This document shows, piece by piece, positions 19,632 to 52,223 of a DNA stretch of 52,223 nt (the first letter of the stretch is position 1; every line of letters begins with the position of its first letter). The translations under genes were made by a program, and so were the position numbers. The DNA comes from Chiloscyllium plagiosum (Eukaryota), in NCBI RefSeq assembly GCF_004010195.1, contig NC_057719.1, positions 37,988,200-38,040,422 on the forward strand. Direction: 5' to 3'. The notes beneath the pieces were generated by a model. It was given only the letters and a program-made list of their open reading frames with translations, was not told where the DNA came from and ran no database searches.

Positions 19632-21590
19632 AAATGAAATCGGGAGGAGGCATGTATATAAACATCAGCAGAGATTAGTTGATCTGAAAGGCCAACTTCT
19701 TGTGATTCTATATGAAGTCACATACCAGACAAGCTGTTTCATCAATGAATGTTGGTCTTGCCAGTAAAGCAATCACACCCGTCAAGGAAAAGACAGAGTA
19801 TACACCATTTAAAAACAGTAGTAAATAGTGTCAAAGGTGGAAAAATGGTAAAAGAAAATCAACATTGATGGTTATCTACTTGAATGCTCATAATACTCAG
19901 AGCAAAATAAATGAATTAATGATACAAAAACAGGTTAATGGGTTTGATCTTGTTGCCATTACAAGGATATGGTTCCAAGCTGGAAACGAAATATTCAGAG
20001 GTATGTGACTTTTCAAAAGGACACGCCGGAAGAAAAGGGTGGTGGGGTTGCATTGTTACAACAGGATGGAATAAGTATGATAATAAGTAATGATCTTGGA
20101 TCAGAAGCTGTAGAAATCGTATGGGTGAAGGTAAGAAACAGAAAGGGGAAGAAAACACTGAAAGGAGTATCTACAGGATCCCTAACAGGAGCAAGATAGT
20201 GAGACAGAGAATAAATCAGGAAATAATAAGAGCAAGTAAAAAGGCAGTACATTAATCACGGATGGTTCTCATATTAAAGAAGATTGGGATAGTCAGATTG
20301 GCAGAGGTAGCAACCAGAAAGAATTTATACAGCATATTTAATAAAAACAATATGTTGTTGATCCAACCAGCATTGCGCTATTTTGACCTGGTGATGTGTA
20401 ATGATGCAACTTAATAAATGACATCAGTGTAAAAGATCCCGTGGAAAACAGTGACCATAAGATGGTAGAATTTAGCTTTCACTTTTAAAGGGAGAAACTT
20501 GGGTCAGAACTAACTTTGCTAAACTTAAATAAAAGCAACTACAAAGGAATGAGGGCGGAGCTAGTCAGAGTGGATTGGGATTGTGATTGAGCAGTATAGG
20601 TTGAGGAATAACGGTAGATATTAAGAAAATGACCCACAGAAGAGATATATCTCAGTGATAAAGGATTCTGGGTCCGGAATAAGCCAACCATGGTGAGCTC
20701 ATGATAACATCAGATTGAAAGAAAAAGTGTTCAATGTGGCAAAGATTAGTTGTAAGTGAGAGGAATGTGAAAGTATTAAAACCAACAAAAGTTGCCCAAA
20801 AAGGAATAAAAAGAGAGAAGATAAAGTGTGAGGATAAACTTGGAAATAATATCTAGATGGACAATAAGGGATTATTTGAATATGTAAAAGGGAAGAGGCA
20901 GACAATGGTGTATATAGGCCCCTTAGAAAGCAATGCGGGGGAATTATTAATGCAGAACCAAGAAATGACAGAGACGTTGAATAAATACTTTGTATCAGCC
21001 TTCTCTGTAGAAGCCACTGATAGCTTTCCAAAAATATTAAACAATCAAGGGGCAATAGGATAAGTGGGAATAAATACAACAAGCATCACCAGAGAAAAAG
21101 TGCTAGGGAAATGATCAATCAGTCCCCTGGATCTGATAGGATGCATCCTCGGATATTAAAACATAGCCACAGAGATAATGAATACAATCATCCAAGAATC
21201 CTTAGATTATGGAAGAATACCAGAGGATTGGGAAACTACTAATGAAAATGAAACAAGACAATAAACAGGAAATGATAGATCAGTTAGCTTCAATTTTGAT
21301 ACTGAAAAAGTATTAGAGTCTGTTTTTAAGGATGAAATAGCAGCACATCTAGAAATATGTAATTTGATGAAGCAGAGTCAGTACCCTTGACAAAGGGTAA
21401 ATCGATGTGGCAAAGATTAGTTGTAAGTGAGAGGAATGTGAAAGTATTAAAACCAACAAAAGTTGCCCAAAAAGGAATAAAAAGAGAGAAGATAAAGTGT
21501 GAGGATAAACTTGGAAATAATATCTAGATGGACAATAAGGGATTATTTGAATATGTAAAAGGGAAGAGGGAGACAATGGTGTATATAGGC

Positions 21591-21680
21591 CCTGAAGAAG
21601 GGCTTATGCCCGAAACGTCGATTCTCCTGTTCCCTGGATGCTGCCTGACCTGCTGCGCTTTTCCAGCAACACATTTTCAG
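21591..21680 (+). mobile_element. Young solo PLE pLTR beginning at an intact hammerhead core, part of a composite insertion with 13-bp TSD
   Basis: CTGAAGA-A-GGGC-TTAT-GCCC-GAAA-CGTC with CpGs retained. TSD caaagggtaaatc at 21391-21403 and 21681-21693. Confidence 0.9.
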
Positions 21681-22721
21681 CAAAGGGTAAATCATGCCTA
21701 ATAAATTTATTAGAATTATTCCATGAGGTAACAAGTAGGATAGATAAAGGAGAAATGGTTGATGTAATATATTTGGAATTTCAAGAAGGCTGTTGATAAG
21801 TTAACACACATTGAAAGGTTCAGTAAGTAAGAGCTGATGGTGTTGGATGTAGTATACTAACATGGATAGAGCATTGGCTAACTAGTGGATGACAGAGAAT
21901 TGGACAAGTAGGGGGTATTTTCAGAATGCTAACTAGTGGAGTGCTACAGTATACGTCATGGCACCAGAATCATTTATAATATATATTAATGACTTGGATG
22001 AGGAAAGTGAATGTAATCCAGCCAAGTTTGTGGAACACAGAAAAGTAAGTGAGAAGGCAAGGTGAGGACAATAGAGTCTACAGAGGGATATAGATAGGTT
22101 AAATGAGTGGGCAAAAACTTGGCAGATTGAATATAATGTGGGGAAATGTAAGGTTATACACTTTGGTAGGAAAAATAGAGGAGCTTAATATTATTTAAAT
22201 GGGGAAGGACTGAAGTAGCTACAGCACAGAGGGATTTGGGAATCCTTGTGCATAAATTACAAAAAGCTAGCATACAAGTTCAGCAGGTAACAGGGAAGGC
22301 AATGAAATGTTGGCCTTTATTCCAAAGGCAATGCAGTATAAACATAGGGAGGTCTGGCCACAACTATAGTGGACACTAGTTATACCACACCTGGAATACT
22401 GTGAATATTTTTCACCCCCTTATCTAAGGAAAGATTTCATGGCAGAGGGGGTGGTGCAACAAAGGTTGAATAGGCTCATCCCTGATTTGGAGGGACTGCC
22501 TTTGTGAGGAGAGGTTAAGCAGGTTTAGCCTGCATTCACTGAAGTTTAGAAGAATGAGAGACACCTTATTGAAGAAACAAGATTCTTAGGGGACTTGACA
22601 AAGTAGATGCAGAAGGGTTGTTTCTCCTCTAGGACCACAGGGTTCACTCTTAAAATAAGGGGTCATCCATTCAGAAGAAAAATGAGGAGGAATTTTATTC
22701 TATTAGAGGGTTGAGAATATC

Positions 22722-23081: not shown

Positions 23082-23320
23082 TATGTTAAAGGCACTTCAA
23101 CAAGTTGTTGTTGTTGAAGAAAAGTAGGAGAGGTGGGAGGGAGAGAAGAACAAAAGGAGTGTGAGAAGGAATACAGATAAATAGAGAGGTGATGGCCTAG
23201 TATGTTAAAGGCACTTCAACAAGTTGTTGTTGTTGAAGAAAAGTAGGAGAGGTGGGAGGGAGAGAAGAACAAAAAGGAGTGTGAGAAGGAATACAGATAA
23301 ATAGAGAGGTGATGGCCTAG
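23082..23320. repeat. Near-perfect tandem duplication (119 bp + 120 bp)
   Basis: 23082-23200 equals 23201-23320 except for one extra A in an A-run. Confidence 0.95.
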
Positions 23321-23476
23321 TGATGTTATCATTGAGCTGTTAATCCAGAGACCCAGATAATTTTCTGGGGACCCAGGTTTGAATCTTGCCAGGGTAAACG
23401 GGGTAATTAGAATTCAATAACAAAAAAAAATGGAATTAAGAGTCTAACGATGACCATGAATCCATTGTCAATTGTA
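23305..23476 (+). mobile_element. DeuSINE-like 5' half (tRNA head)
   Basis: gaggtgatggcctagtga (A-box-like) and ggtttgaatc (B-box-like). Reverse-complement similar to 11120-11268. Confidence 0.65.
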
Positions 23477-34439: not shown

Positions 34440-35375
34440 ATGGCCCTTAGTAGAGTGATATGCTCTTTTTGTTGGATGTGGAAGTTTAGGGAGAGTTTAC
34501 GGATTACTGAGGATTACATTTGCGATAAATGCCATTGTTTGCGAATCCTGTCATATCGAATGGATCGGTTGGAGAGACAGTTAGAGACAATGAGGAATTT
34601 ACAAGAGCAAGGTGATGTGATGGATGGCAGTTACAAGAAGGGGGAAAATCTCAGATACAGTCACATAGATGGGTTAACTCCAGGAAAGGTAAGAGAGGTA
34701 GGCAGGTAGTGCAGGAGTCTTCTGTGGCTATTCCCATTTCAACCAGGTATGCTGTTTTGGAAAATGTAGGGGGTGATTGATTCTCAGGGGAACGTAACAT
34801 GAACATCTAAGTTTCTGGTATTGAGACTGGCTCTAATGCAATGAGGGGTACGTCAGGTTCCAAGATATCAATTGTGTTAGGGGATTCTGTAGTCCGACGT
34901 ACAGACAGACGTTTCTGTCGCCAGCAGCAAAAAAGCAGAATGGTGTGTTGCCTTCCTGGTGCCAGGATAAAGGATGTCTCAGAGAAGGTGCAGAATGTTC
35001 TCAAGGGGGAGAGGGCCCAGCAGGAGGTCATTGTCCACATTGGAACCAACAACATAGGAAGGGAAAAGGTTGAGATTCTGAAGGGAGATTCACAGAGAGT
35101 TAGGCAGAAATTTAAAAAGGCGGTCCTCGAGAGTAGTAATATCTGGATTACTCCCAGAGCTATGAGTTAGTGAGGGCAGAAATAGAAGGATAGAGCAGAT
35201 GAATGCATGGCTGAGAAGCTGGTGTATGGGAGAATGATTCACATTTTTGGATCACTGTAATCTATTTTCGGGTAAAAGTGACCTGTACAAGAAGGACGGA
35301 TCGCACCCACATTGTAAGGGGACTAATATACTGGCAGGGAGATTGGCTAGAGCTGCTTGGGAGGATTTAAACTAG
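34440..35375 (+). pseudogene. CR1 ORF1 (zinc finger/leucine zipper + SGNH esterase), frameshifted
   Basis: MALSRVICSFCWMW..YICDKC..RMDRLERQLE and IVLGDSVVR..CCLPGARI..VHIGTNNIG. Confidence 0.85.
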
Positions 35376-38105
35376 TAAGGTGGGGGATGGGACCCAGGGA
35401 GATAGTGAGGAAAGAGATCAATCTGAGACTGGTACAGTTGAGAACAAAGGCGAGTCAAACAGTCAGGGCAGGCAGGAACAAAGCAGTGAACAAGAACGGA
35501 TAAATTAAACTGCATTTATTTCAATGCAAGAGGCTTAATAGGGAAGGCAGATGAACTCAAGGCATGGTTAGGAACATGGGACTGGAATATCATAGCAATT
35601 ACGGAAACATGGCTCAGGATGGACGGGACTTGGAGCTTAAAGTTCCAGGATACAAATGATACAGGAAGGACAGAAAGAGGGAGGCAAGAGAGGAGGGGGA
35701 GTGGTGTTTTTGATAAGGGATAGCATTACAGCCATACTGAGGTAAGATACTCCCTGAAATACAACCAGGATGTTATTTGGATGAAACTGAGAAATAAGAA
35801 AGGGATGATCACTTTATTGGGATTGTATTGTAGACCCCCTAATAGTCAGAGGGAAATTGAGAAACAAATTTGTAAGGAGAACTCAGTTATCTGTAAGAAT
35901 AATATGGTGGTTGTGTAGGGGGATTTTAACTTTCCAAACATAGACTAGGACTGTCATAGTGTTAAGGGATTAAATGGAGAGGAATTTGTTAAGTGTGTAC
36001 AAGAAAAGTTTCTGATTCAGTATGTGGATGTACTAACTACAGAAGGTGCAAAACTTGACCTAATCTTGGGAAATAAGGCAGGGCAGGTGACTGAGGTGTC
36101 AGTGAGGAAGCACTTTTGGGCCAGCGACCATAATTCTATTAGACTTAAAATAGTGATGGAAAAGGACAGACCAGATCTAAAAGTTGAAGTTCTAAATTGG
36201 AGAAAGGCAAATATTAGGCAAAGAATTTTCAAGAGCTAATTGGGCACAGATGTTCGCAGGTAAAGGGACGGCTGGAAAATGGGAAGCCTTCAGAAATGAG
36301 ATAACGAGAGCCCAGAGAAAGTATATTCCTTTCAGGGTGAAAGGAAAGGCTGGTAGGTGTAGGGAATGCTGGATGACTAAAGAAATTGAGGGTTTGGTTA
36401 AGAAAAAGAAGGAAGCATATGCCAGGTATAGACAGAATACATCGAGTGAATCCTTAGAAGAGTATAAAGGCAGTAGGAGTATACTTAAGAGGGAAATCAG
36501 GACGGCAAAAAGGGGACATGAGATAGCTTTGGCAAATATAGTTAAGGAGAATCCAAAGGGTTTTTACAAATAAATTAAGGACAAAACGGTAACTAGGGAG
36601 AGAATAGCGTCCCTCAAATATCAGCAAGGCAGCCTTTGTGTGGAGCCGCAGGAGATGGGAAAGATATAAACGAGTATTTTGCATTGGTATTTACTGTGGA
36701 AAAGCACATGTACAGACATAGACTGTAGGAAATAGATGGTGACATCTTGAAAAAATGTCCATATTATAGATGAGGAAGTGCTGGATGTCATGAAACGCAT
36801 AAAAATAGATAAATTCACATGACCTGATCATGTGTACCTTAGAACTGTGTGGGAAGATAAGGAAGTGATTGCTGGGCCTCTTACTGAGATAATTGTATCA
36901 TCGATAGTCACAGCTGAGGTGTCAGAAGACTGGAGGTTGGCTAACATGGTGCCATTGTTTAAGAAGGGTGGTAAGGACAAACCAGGGGAACAATAGACCA
37001 GTGAGCCTTGTATCAGTGGTGGGCAAGTTGTTGGAGAGAATCCTGAGGGACAGGATGTACATGTATTTGGGAAGGCAAGGACTGATTCTGGATAGTCAAC
37101 ATGGCTTTGTGCATGGGAAATCATGTCTCACAAACTTAATTGAGTTTTTTGAAGAAGTAACAAAGAGGATTGATGAGGGCAGAGAGGTAGATGTGATCCA
37201 CGTGGACTTCAGTAAAGCGTTCGACAAGGTTCCCCATGGGAGACTGATTAGCAAGGTTAGATCTCATGGAATACAGGGAGAACTAGCCATTTGGATACAG
37301 AACTGGCTCAAAGGTAGAAGACAGAGGGTGGAGGCTTGCTTTTCAGACTGGAGGCCTGTGACCAGTGGAGTGCCACAAGGATCTGTGCTCGGTCCACTAC
37401 TTTTTGTCATATATATAAATGATTTGGATGTGAGCATAAGAGGTTTAGTTAGTAAGTTTTGTAGATGACACCAAAATTAAAGGTACAGTGGACAGTGAAA
37501 AAGGTTACCTCAGATTACAACAGGATCTTGATCAGATGGGCCAATAGGTTAAGAAGTGGCAGATGGAGTTTAATTTAAATAAATGTGAGGTGCTACATTT
37601 TGGGAAAGCAAATCTTAGCAGGACATATACACTTAATGGTAAGGTCCTAGGGAGTGTTGCTGAACAAAGAGACCTTGCAATGCAGGTTCATAGCTCCTTG
37701 AAAGTGGAGTTGCAGGTAAATGGGATAGTGAAGAAGGCATTTGGTATGCATTCTTTTATTGGTCAGAGTATTGAGTACAGGAGTTGGGAGGTCATGTTGT
37801 GGCTGTACAATTCTGGTCTTCCTATCAGAAGAATGTTGTGAAACTTGAAAGAGTTCAGAAAAGATTTCCAAGGATGTTGCCAGGGTTGGAGGAATTGAGC
37901 TACAGGGAGAGGCTGAACAGGCTGGGGCTGTTTTCCCTGGAGCGTCGGAGGCCGAGGGGTGACCTTATAGAGGTTTACAAAATTATGAGGGGCATGGAGA
38001 GGATAAGCAGACAACGTCTTTTCCCCGGGTTGGGAGAGTCCAGAACTAGAGGGCATAGGTTTAGGGTGAGAGGGGAAAGATATAAAAGAGACCGAAGGGT
38101 CAACC

Positions 38106-38495
38106 TTGTTGTGGTTCTGTTCGCCGAGCTGGAAATTTTTGTTGCAAACGTTTCGTTCCCTGTCTAGGTGACATCCTCAGTGCTTGGGAGCCTCCTGTGA
38201 AGCGCTTCTGTGATGTTTCCTCCGGCATTTATAGTGGCCTGTCCCTGCCGCTTCCGGTTGTCAGTTTCAGCTGTCCGCTGTAGTGGCCGGTATATTGGGT
38301 CCAGGTCGATGTGTTTGTTGATGGAGTTTGTGGATGGAAAAGGGACAGGCCACTATAAATGCCGGAGGAAACACCATAGAAGCGCTTCACAGGAGACTCC
38401 CAAGCACTGAGGATGTCACCTAGACTGGGGACGAAACGTTTGCAACAAAAATTTCCAGCTCAGCGAACAGAACCACAACAACGAGCACCCGGAGC
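38106..38495 (-). mobile_element. Young PLE 3' end with inverted pLTR (141-bp arms), a different family from 1-1940
   Basis: Arms 38106-38246 and 38341-38481. The spacer on minus encodes STNSINKHIDLDPIYRPL, a PLE endonuclease C-terminus-like motif. Confidence 0.88.
38404..38443 (+). ncRNA. Minimal type I hammerhead ribozyme, core intact (mirror copy at 38143-38183 on minus)
   Basis: GCA-CUGAGGA-U-GUC..GAC-GAAA-CGUU|UGC: helix I GCA/UGC, palindromic AACGUU helix III, predicted GUU cleavage after 38440. Confidence 0.8.
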
Positions 38496-38833
38496 ACCCA
38501 CAATATTAGCATCTGTAGCATATGATATTGGAAGAAGCATTCACTAACCCTTACCACTTGTTTGACTTTGGGTCAAACTTTGGGTATGTGTATGAAATGA
38601 GCTGCCAGAATAAGTGGTGGAGGCTAGTACAATTGCAACATTTAAAAGGCATCTGGATGGGTATATGAATAGGAAGGATTTGGAGGGATATGGGCCAGGT
38701 GCTGGCAGGTGGGACTAGGTTTGGTTGGGATATCCAGTCGGCATGGACAGGTTGGACTGAATGGTCTGTTTTCGTGCTGTACATCTCTATGACTTTGACT
38801 CTATGTTGCTTCTCGCTACTGATCACCTTGTCC

Positions 38834-39523: not shown

Positions 39524-39627
39524 TGGTGAATGGTTTAACCGTAAGGTCACTATGCCTCAGGCGAGGGGTCAGGTTGAGAAGGCTGGACCTTCACAGTAAC
39601 CTCAGCTGGTCTGGGAATTAAACCCAC
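39445..39627. repeat. Short interspersed repeat (SINE-like), related to 3955-4085
   Basis: tttaacc..ggtcactatgcctcaggcgagggg..ggttgagaagg shared with tttaacctggggtccactatgtctcagatgaggggaggttgagg. Confidence 0.55.
39491..39520. repeat. (AG)15 microsatellite
   Basis: Perfect dinucleotide run. Confidence 0.97.
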
Positions 39628-39680
39628 AATATTAGCATCTGTAGCATGTGATATTGGAAGAAGCATTCACTAACCCTTAC

Positions 39681-39837
39681 CACTTGTCTGATTTAATTGA
39701 TTCACTCGTAGCTTTGTATCTTAATCCTTGGGGCCAGGCTCTGGCTTTGATAGCTATGACTATCTGATCCCTGTACTTTTCGGGTGCATCTGGAGGGTTA
39801 ACTTTCCATTGTTCCACCTCCTCCACTGATGTAACAT
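39681..39837 (-). CDS. Candidate internal coding exon of an unidentified host gene (157 nt, phase 1-2)
   Basis: Acceptor caatgttttcag|, donor TG|gtaagg. Open frame VTSVEEVEQWKVNPPDAPEKYRDQIVIAIKARAWPQGLRYKATSESIKSDK. Confidence 0.6.
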
Positions 39838-51447: not shown

Positions 51448-52223
51448 TAAAATAGTGATGGAAAAGGATAGACCAGATATAAAAGTTGAAGTTCTAACTT
51501 GGAGGAAGGCTCATTTTGACGGCATTGGGCAGGATCTTTCAAAAGCTGATTGGGCGCAGATGTTCACAGGTAAAAGGACGGCTGGAAAATGGGAAGCCTT
51601 CAGAAATGAGATAACATGAGTCCAGAGAAAGTATATTCCTGTTAGGATGAAAGGAAAGGTTGCTAGGTATAGGGAATACTGGATGACTGAAGGCTTCCAA
51701 GAGATCAATTGTGTTAGGGGATTCTGTAGTCCGAGGTACAGACAGACGTTTCTGTGGCCAGCAGAGAAAAAGCAGAATGGTGTGTTGTTTCCCTGGTGCC
51801 AGGATCAAGGATGTCTCAGAGAGGGTGCAGAATGTTCTCACGGGGGAGAGGGGCCAGCAGGAGGTCATTGTACACATTGGAACCAATGACATTGGAAGGG
51901 AAAAGGTTGAGATTCTGAAGGGAGATTACAGAGAGTTAGGCAGAAATTTAAAAAGGAGGTCCTCAAGGGTAGTAAGATCTGGATTACTCCCAGAGCTACG
52001 AGCTAGTGAGGGCAGGAATAGGAGGATAGAGCAGATGAATGCATGGCTGAGGAGCTGGTGTATGGGAGAAGGATCCACATTTTTGAATCATTGGAATCTC
52101 TTTTGGGGTAGAAGTGACCTGTACAAAAAGGACGGATTGCACCGAAATTGGAAGTGGATTAATATACTGTCAGGGAAATTTGCTAGAACTGCTTGGGAGG
52201 ATTTAAACTTGTAAGGTGGGGGT
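51448..52223 (+). mobile_element. CR1 LINE, rearranged: ORF2 piece (51448-51688) joined upstream of ORF1 esterase (51695 onward), runs off the right edge
   Basis: 51448-51688 matches about 36146-36378, and 51695-52223 matches about 34858-35390. ORF 51711-52214 has GDS, GTND and DGLH SGNH blocks in one frame. Confidence 0.9.

What the first reader, a model, noticed from the sequence alone, without database searches (positions are those of the whole stretch)
38097..38580. Second local capture by a different PLE family duplicates a candidate host splice donor
Seen: immediately after the inverted-pLTR element, 38496-38565 copies 39622-39691 (70 bp, 2 mismatches, offset 1126 bp). An imperfect TSD (gggtcaacctt/gggtcaaactt) flanks the insertion. 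The copied piece contains the last 11 nt and the GTAAGG donor of candidate exon 39681-39837. It sits at the element's 5' junction and is co-oriented with the putative host transcript. Inference: a template switch onto nascent pre-mRNA or local DNA created a duplicate 5' splice site 1.1 kb into the intron.
Basis: partly seen in the sequence, partly recalled or inferred. Interest (0 to 1): 0.75.

Follow-up and report, generated by a model that had tools for sequence, protein, structure and literature searches.

The report
Local DNA patch in Penelope tail
About 70 bases of nearby DNA were copied into the 3' tail of a short, two-armed Penelope-like jumping-gene insertion, most likely as an ordinary DNA-repair patch of a kind scattered through this genome, and nothing shows that the splice-like signal it carries is real or used.

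Summary
The duplication is real (38496-38568 = 39622-39694, 73 bp, 3 mismatches) and occurs only at these two places in the genome. The element is this family's usual two-armed Penelope-like insertion: a tail-less inverted arm plus a tail-bearing arm, with a 10-11 bp TSD (family mode 11). The copy replaces 17 nt inside the 3' tail of the right arm; it is not at a 5' junction. If made during first-strand synthesis there, its template had to be + sense, which excludes the supposed minus-strand pre-mRNA. Similar 47-184 bp patches from 0.2-1.3 kb away occur in both orientations away from this family (5 in 578 kb of arbitrary DNA). That rate predicts about one such patch among the family's tails, and this is the only one found. 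The exon has no homologue and no host gene was identified; donor use is untested. Two runs of a sister organism show a single copy. Best reading: a host microhomology-mediated templated insertion at or after integration. The scan noted such captures in Penelope-like copies elsewhere in this genome before. Ordinary.

The parts
35949..38107 (+). Host LINE (CR1-like, label recalled), left part, interrupted by the insertion
   Evidence: RVT_1 hit E 2e-23 at 36908-37465; 2346 first-look candidates for 38010-38104 in the genome
38097..38107 (+). Left copy of the target-site duplication, GGGTCAACCTT
   Evidence: its T is private to this LINE copy, 0 of 29 sisters
38107..38336 (-). Tail-less inverted pLTR arm of a Penelope-like element, 3' end pointing left
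   Evidence: 97-99% identical to the best family copies; ends at the tail-less site
38337..38340 (.). 4-nt seam between the two 5'-truncated arms
38341..38495 (+). Tail-bearing pLTR arm with the first part of the tail (38483-38495; GAGCACCC repeated at 38483 and 38492); hammerhead-like motifs CTGAGGA 38407 and CGAAAC 38432 (recalled motif, no Rfam match)
   Evidence: Rfam 0 matches
38496..38564 (+). Locally templated patch, direct copy of DNA starting at 39622; replaces 17 nt of the tail; carries a duplicate donor-like motif, GT at 38554-38553 on the minus strand
38565..38570 (+). ACTTTG, the last 6 nt of the family tail, at its usual place before the TSD
   Evidence: family ends CAAACTTTG then TSD; position
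38570..38582 (+). Right TSD copy (38570-38580, one mismatch), overlapping a second tail-end 9-mer (38574-38582); ACTTTGGGT occurs twice, at 38565 and 38577
38583..38794 (+). Host LINE resumes, net 12 nt shorter than in 24 of 29 sister copies
39622..39694 (+). Template (source) of the patch, unique DNA 1126 bp to the right
39681..39837 (-). Candidate exon (AG...GT, 51 open codons), unverified
   Evidence: open frame; donor score among the top 32 of 2716 minus-strand GT sites, weak acceptor; no homologue

Best explanation
A 70-base copy of DNA from 1.1 kb away sits inside the 3' tail of a standard two-armed Penelope-like insertion, and it was most likely pasted in by host microhomology-mediated repair or replication template switching on a DNA template, during or after integration. 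Shown: the two-arm anatomy, the 10-11 bp TSD, the loss of 17 tail bases with the last 6 kept, short junction repeats on both sides (GAGCACCC twice, ACTTTGGGT twice), and a net 12-nt loss in the flanking LINE. Inferred: a break opened at the tail/TSD junction, a free 3' end annealed by a few bases (ACCC on the left; GA(C/T)TT on the right) to DNA 1.1 kb away, copied about 70 nt, and rejoined after one or two short re-primings. The donor-like motif was likely carried along by chance and has no shown effect.
For: Capture inside the tail with tail end and TSD kept. Same kind of patch away from this family: 5 unique, non-tandem local duplications of 47-184 bp, 0.2-1.3 kb apart, 3 inverted and 2 direct, in 577,825 bases of 60 arbitrary regions, none next to this family (3 satellite rows of L209 dropped from 8). 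More such patches inside LINE bodies or beside other repeats in the 60 family-centred 10-kb loci (L095, L106, L119, L139, L144). Background rate x 7082 tails x 18 nt = 1.1 expected; this is the only local host capture among 15 pattern hits for stretched tails. No enrichment at family junctions: 3 of 293 against 86 of 28196 control positions, p 0.06, and 2 of the 3 are repeat pairs; unique-only 0 of 263. No local capture seen in the seams of 65 two-armed insertions (several gaps are N-filled). The repeated ACTTTGGGT copies the tail/target junction, which suggests that junction already existed as DNA (inference). Junction repeats fit SD-MMEJ (PMC2943611, abstract) and MMB-TI (PMC8421209, passages).
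Against: The patch starts only 6 nt from the reverse-transcription start site, which is what an early RT jump would also give. One other family copy, L006, has a 257-bp, 100% identical inverted local copy exactly at an arm end, and earlier scan notes report captures at seams of such elements, so some link to integration is possible. The background rate rests on 5 events (about 3-20 per Mb). The 12-nt LINE loss may predate the insertion (1 of 29 sisters has a like deletion). No allele with the element but without the patch was seen, so the order of events is not shown.
Confidence: 0.65

Rival explanations
1. The element's own reverse transcriptase made the patch: primed from the bottom-strand end of the TSD, it copied 6 nt of tail RNA, jumped to the top DNA strand 1.1 kb away for about 70 nt, and jumped back to the tail RNA 17 nt further on.
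For: Position at the RT start. PAc cleaves and extends both strands and starts at two sites that bound the tail (PMC11167929, parts 1-2 read). L1 makes chimeric insertions with templated genomic DNA (10.1101/2024.08.27.596794 and PMC11702581, passages). L006 shows a capture at an arm end.
Against: Only 1 such case among more than 7000 tails, as the background predicts. The L1 templated insertions described lie mostly within 15 bp of the site, not 1.1 kb. It does not explain the repeated ACTTTGGGT and the LINE loss without a further step.
Confidence: 0.2
2. One reading: a switch onto nascent host pre-mRNA copied the exon end and donor.
For: The source lies upstream of the insertion in a minus-strand transcript, if there is one. 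RNA-derived patches at breaks are described (PMC5110952, section 5 read). A top-strand polymerase copying minus-sense RNA would give a direct copy.
Against: First-strand synthesis of this arm makes the bottom strand and needs a + sense template. No host gene or exon homologue found. Equal patches of both orientations occur in arbitrary DNA. A random 70-mer holds a donor of this score about 4% of the time per strand.
Confidence: 0.08
3. Short-read assembly error next to an inverted repeat.
For: Many two-armed copies in this assembly contain N gaps. Two runs of organism B show one copy only, and run X1 of organism A was inconclusive.
Against: The copy differs from the source at 3 sites, and the organism B source differs from the copy at only 1 of 70, so the copy shares an allele that the window's source lacks. 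Both junctions parse into tail, TSD and short repeats, and the window holds no N.
Confidence: 0.05

Closest known systems
Endonuclease-bearing Penelope-like element insertion unit: inverted 5'-truncated pLTR, tail on one end, 8-10 bp TSD (PMC3846280, passages; PMC11167929, parts 1-2 of 4)
   Same: Head-to-head arms, tail on one arm only, short TSD, RT followed by a GIY-YIG-like region in longer copies. PMC3846280 also reports host DNA captured as a spacer before the 3' pLTR of Pen1.
   Different: This copy is a 0.4-kb ORF-less remnant whose tail is split by local host DNA; the passages read describe no split tail.
Microhomology-mediated templated insertions: MMB-TI/MMBIR (PMC8421209, passages) and SD-MMEJ / polymerase theta scars (PMC2943611, abstract)
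   Same: Copy of nearby DNA replacing a few bases, microhomology or microhomeology at junctions, several short re-primings, germline occurrence.
   Different: Classical MMB-TI is inverted and very close to its template; this one is direct and 1.1 kb away. The enzyme is not shown here.
LINE insertions with flank-derived sequence: 5' extra nucleotides (PMC4245944, passages) and L1 templated insertions (10.1101/2024.08.27.596794; PMC11702581; passages)
   Same: Retroelement insertion joined to a duplicated piece of local genomic DNA under 250 bp.
   Different: Those lie at 5' junctions or use templates within about 15 bp; here the piece is in the 3' tail and comes from 1.1 kb away.
Class 2 templated sequence insertion polymorphisms (PMC5110952, abstract and section 5)
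   Same: A DNA patch copied into a break with the donor left intact.
   Different: Those come from distant regions and are argued to be RNA-derived; this one is local.

Membership tests
EN+ Penelope-like element (Penelope/Poseidon type) | Reverse transcriptase ORF in longer copies | tested here: met
   RVT_1 above cut-off in 2 of 4 fragments (L028, L014)
EN+ Penelope-like element (Penelope/Poseidon type) | C-terminal GIY-YIG endonuclease | tested here: inconclusive
   GIY-YIG hit in L019 at E 0.18, below cut-off; VVY...YIG motif visible downstream of RT
EN+ Penelope-like element (Penelope/Poseidon type) | Inverted 5'-truncated pLTR with a 30-40 nt tail on one end | tested here: met
   45 tail-less+tail pairs against 1 tail+tail and 1 tail-less pair among 146 clusters; tail about 36 nt
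EN+ Penelope-like element (Penelope/Poseidon type) | Short target-site duplication | tested here: met
   34 of 45 with 7 nt or more, mode 11; 10-11 nt with one mismatch here
EN+ Penelope-like element (Penelope/Poseidon type) | Hammerhead ribozyme in the pLTR | tested here: inconclusive
   CTGAGGA and CGAAAC motifs present, but 0 Rfam matches and no notable fold, z -0.26
EN+ Penelope-like element (Penelope/Poseidon type) | RT phylogeny placing it in the Penelope/Poseidon clade | not tested
   no tree built; clade label is a resemblance
Microhomology-mediated templated insertion (MMB-TI / SD-MMEJ type) | Insert copied from a nearby intact template | tested here: met
Microhomology-mediated templated insertion (MMB-TI / SD-MMEJ type) | Microhomology or short templated repeats at junctions | tested here: met
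   ACCC shared at the left, GAGCACCC x2, ACTTTGGGT x2, GTTTGAC/GTCAAAC inverted pair; each is short and could be partly chance
Microhomology-mediated templated insertion (MMB-TI / SD-MMEJ type) | Inverted orientation close to the template (classical MMB-TI) | tested here: not met
   direct, 1126 bp apart; so it is not filed as classical MMB-TI
Microhomology-mediated templated insertion (MMB-TI / SD-MMEJ type) | Dependence on polymerase theta or a replication-fork switch | not testable with these tools
   needs genetics
LINE-type 5' extra nucleotides | Position at the 5' junction of the insert | tested here: not met
   inside the 3' tail
Functional duplicated splice donor | Source exon is real and the new donor is used | tested here: inconclusive
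   no homologue; the RNA run laid had no reads on 38520-38581 and cannot decide

The most novel reading that the evidence does not exclude
The Penelope reverse transcriptase, six bases after starting at its tail site, jumped onto chromosomal DNA 1.1 kb away and back onto its RNA. That would be a genomic footprint of DNA-templated jumping at initiation, at the 3' end, unlike the 5' captures of LINEs. A related possibility is that the tail is re-cut by the element's own endonuclease and so collects repair scars (L154, L155, L157, L158, L160, L165).
Probability: 0.2. Interest if true: 0.45.

Novelty: new member of a known kind. Interest (0 to 1): 0.18.

Why it matters
As a single case it matters little: it is one of many small locally templated patches in this genome. 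It corrects a tempting story, since orientation alone does not point to an RNA template and the splice-donor copy is unproven. The family itself is a useful resource: more than 7000 tail-bearing copies with a strict one-tail, one-tail-less layout and 11-bp duplications could test how Penelope reverse transcriptase starts on both strands, and whether patches are enriched at its start sites.

Tried and rejected
Dispersed-repeat origin of the 70-mer: rejected. Fold-back of one cDNA as the origin of the two arms: unlikely, since the right arm has the tail that the left lacks and the arms carry different alleles at 2 sites that are polymorphic in the family. Reading 38574-38582 as the true tail end with no TSD: considered first, then dropped because the family almost always makes a TSD and ACTTTG at 38565 already sits in the canonical place. 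Host gene: Pfam, PDB, ESM Atlas, two protein collections and an own-genome search gave no orthologue or paralogue (two weak hits at E about 1e-4, one in an fn3-repeat protein); a crude exon scan of the window and 200 kb of flank with approximate, recalled splice weights, and Pfam on 40 of the candidates, named no gene. The protein collections' cover of vertebrate proteins was not checked with a control. The polyA single-cell run X21 (about 2% read) had no reads on 38520-38581, which is uninformative. One search had a filter bug that dropped long hits; one search replaces it. A search for 'Penelope-like' with 'templated insertion' gave 1 paper; this is the only search behind the remark that split tails were not found in print. 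Supplements of the cited papers were not read and may hold such cases.

Full report
Observation. The segment 38496-38565 matches 39622-39691 with 2 mismatches at offset 1126 and extends to 73 bp with 3 mismatches. A search of the 3.56-Gb own genome finds only these two places. The two 11-mers named as TSD are each single in the window. On the minus strand the copy reads GTG|GTAAGG, with GT at 38554-38553. The sequence facts of the finding stand.

The element. The arms 38107-38336 (minus) and 38341-38495 (plus) belong to a large family: 1395 first-look candidates, and 7082 exact matches to a 23-nt pattern spanning the pLTR end and tail start. Longer copies carry RT (RVT_1 above cut-off in 2 of 4 fragments) followed by a GIY-YIG-like region (E 0.18, below cut-off). 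Family copies end either at a tail-less site or about 36 nt further at CAAACTTTG. In 120 loci, 146 clusters were typed: 45 pair a tail-less arm with a tail-bearing arm, 1 has two tails and 1 has none; the rest are one-ended or irregular (90 of the loci were picked by the tail pattern, so tail-less pairs are under-sampled). Of the 45, 34 have a flank duplication of 7 nt or more directly after the tail, mode 11, against 34 of 1954 shuffled pairs. This is the insertion unit described for endonuclease-bearing Penelope elements (PMC3846280, passages), and it fits the in vitro finding that a Poseidon protein cuts and extends both strands and starts at two sites bounding the tail (PMC11167929, parts 1-2 of 4). 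Both outer ends are therefore pLTR 3' ends, and the right arm is the tail-bearing one.

Where the copy sits. The family tail reads GAGCACCCGAGC, 17 nt, ACTTTG, then TSD. The window reads GAGCACCC-G-GAGC (38483-38495), the host copy (38496-38564), ACTTTG (38565-38570), then GGTCAAACTT, the right TSD copy with one mismatch. So the host piece replaces 17 nt inside the tail. The TSD carries a T found in 0 of 29 sister LINE copies, which ties it to the left flank. The host LINE (RVT_1; CR1 label recalled) resumes at 38583, net 12 nt shorter than 24 of 29 sisters; 1 of 29 has a like deletion. Short repeats mark both junctions: GAGCACCC at 38483 and 38492, ACTTTGGGT at 38565 and 38577, and GTTTGAC/GTCAAAC. 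The left arm has no private change in about 230 nt and the right arm 4 in 150 (Fisher p 0.02), which I cannot explain; it may reflect two templates.

Template polarity (inference). First-strand synthesis of the right arm makes the bottom strand, starting from the TSD. A direct copy made then needs a + sense template: top-strand DNA, not a minus-strand pre-mRNA. An RNA template remains possible only if the piece was added during top-strand synthesis.

Is capture a family trait? In 119 other loci (59 with about 1.5 kb flanks, 60 with 5 kb) 3 of 293 junctions had an adjacent local match of 30 bp or more, against 86 of 28196 control positions (p 0.06); two of the three are pairs of repeat fragments and one, L006, is a 257-bp, 100% inverted copy at an arm end. 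With both copies required unique, 0 of 263 junctions scored (L006 fell out because part of it matches another locus). The seams of 65 two-armed insertions showed no local capture, though several gaps are N-filled. Genome-wide patterns for tails stretched to 23-53 and 54-113 nt gave 7 and 8 hits. These are slip-back duplications, a short inverted filler (L160), a repeat inserted into the tail (L165), intact tails with a later match, and this window; only this one holds local host DNA (one search examined 9 of the other 14; the rest were read from the listed match). An earlier scan note put local captures at about one in ten of longer insertions; my sample of this family does not show that.

Background. 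In 60 arbitrary 10-kb regions (577,825 non-N bases) there are 5 non-tandem, nearly unique local duplications of 47-184 bp, 94-100% identical, 194-1300 bp apart, 3 inverted and 2 direct, none beside this family (3 satellite rows dropped from 8). The family-centred loci hold more, three of them 100-118 bp pieces from 0.6-1.1 kb away set into LINE bodies (L095, L106, L144). At this rate 7082 tails x 18 nt give 1.1 expected patches, and two patches in a 52-kb window have probability about 0.08. The rate rests on 5 events.

Other samples. In two runs of organism B a single contig of 2083 or 1035 bp runs through the 70-mer with 1 other letter, starting 93-124 bp before it as the source locus would, and the depth on 38520-38550 equals that contig's depth (11.0, 11.1): no second copy is seen there (contigs show presence, not absence). 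Whether B has the element at this site could not be read. Run X1 of organism A was inconclusive and may be the assembly's own sample. The RNA run showed family transcripts with intact tails but no reads on 38520-38581.

The exon. 39681-39837 has AG and GT ends and 51 open codons. The donor ranks in the top 32 of 2716 minus-strand GT sites and the acceptor is weak on my approximate matrices. No homologue was found and no host gene in 250 kb. If the exon is real, extending it to the new donor meets a stop at once, and the two better acceptors between the sites give pseudo-exons closed in all frames. A random 70-mer contains such a donor about 4% of the time per strand.

Mechanism. Most likely (0.65) a host polymerase patched a break at the tail/TSD junction from DNA 1.1 kb away, at or after integration, as in SD-MMEJ (PMC2943611, abstract) or non-classical MMB-TI (PMC8421209, passages). 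Next (0.2) the element's RT jumped to DNA just after starting; L1 makes related chimeras, mostly from within 15 bp (10.1101/2024.08.27.596794, passages; PMC11702581, passages), and LINE 5' extra bases often come from flanks (PMC4245944, passages). A pre-mRNA template (0.08) has precedent for distant patches (PMC5110952, abstract and section 5) but no support here. Assembly error 0.05.

Verdict. Real, correctly located, wrongly oriented and over-read. A new instance of a known kind of scar; the scan has noted similar captures in Penelope-like copies elsewhere in this genome. Interest 0.18.

Noticed in passing
window 21389-21694: The other local capture in this window: 21402-21592 copies 20731-20921 (191 bp, 2 mismatches, direct, 671 bp to the left), followed by a roughly 90-bp repeat with hammerhead-like motifs, all inside a perfect 13-bp TSD. 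It lies on the 5' side of that + strand element, so first-strand synthesis would again need a + sense template.
   Followed up: partly
L006:2081-2337: 257-bp, 100% identical inverted copy of L006:2771-3027 joined directly to a 3'-truncated arm of the same family; could be a young capture or an assembly error.
   Followed up: partly
L154, L155, L158 around 1500-1583: Three copies on different contigs share nearly the same 35-bp slip-back duplication of pLTR end plus tail start, at a GAGCT/CAGCT likeness.
   Followed up: no
family loci L004-L062, L093-L152: Two-armed insertions almost always pair one tail-bearing with one tail-less end (45 against 1 double-tailed), often with 1-2 A between tail and TSD: the two primed strands seem to use different RT start sites.
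   Followed up: partly
L148:3355-5041: Nested inverted duplication with a 148-bp, 100% identical piece between three family arms.
   Followed up: no
L161, L167, L168: Three loci share similar sequence after the tail, suggesting a segmental duplication or a 3' transduction.
   Followed up: no
window 23082-23328: Tandem duplication of about 120-128 bp, 98% identical.
   Followed up: no
window 34858-35386 and 51695-52222: 529-bp pair, 91% identical, likely two copies of the 5' part of the same LINE family.
   Followed up: no
L114:1-4044: A 54-bp minisatellite array of at least 4 kb.
   Followed up: no
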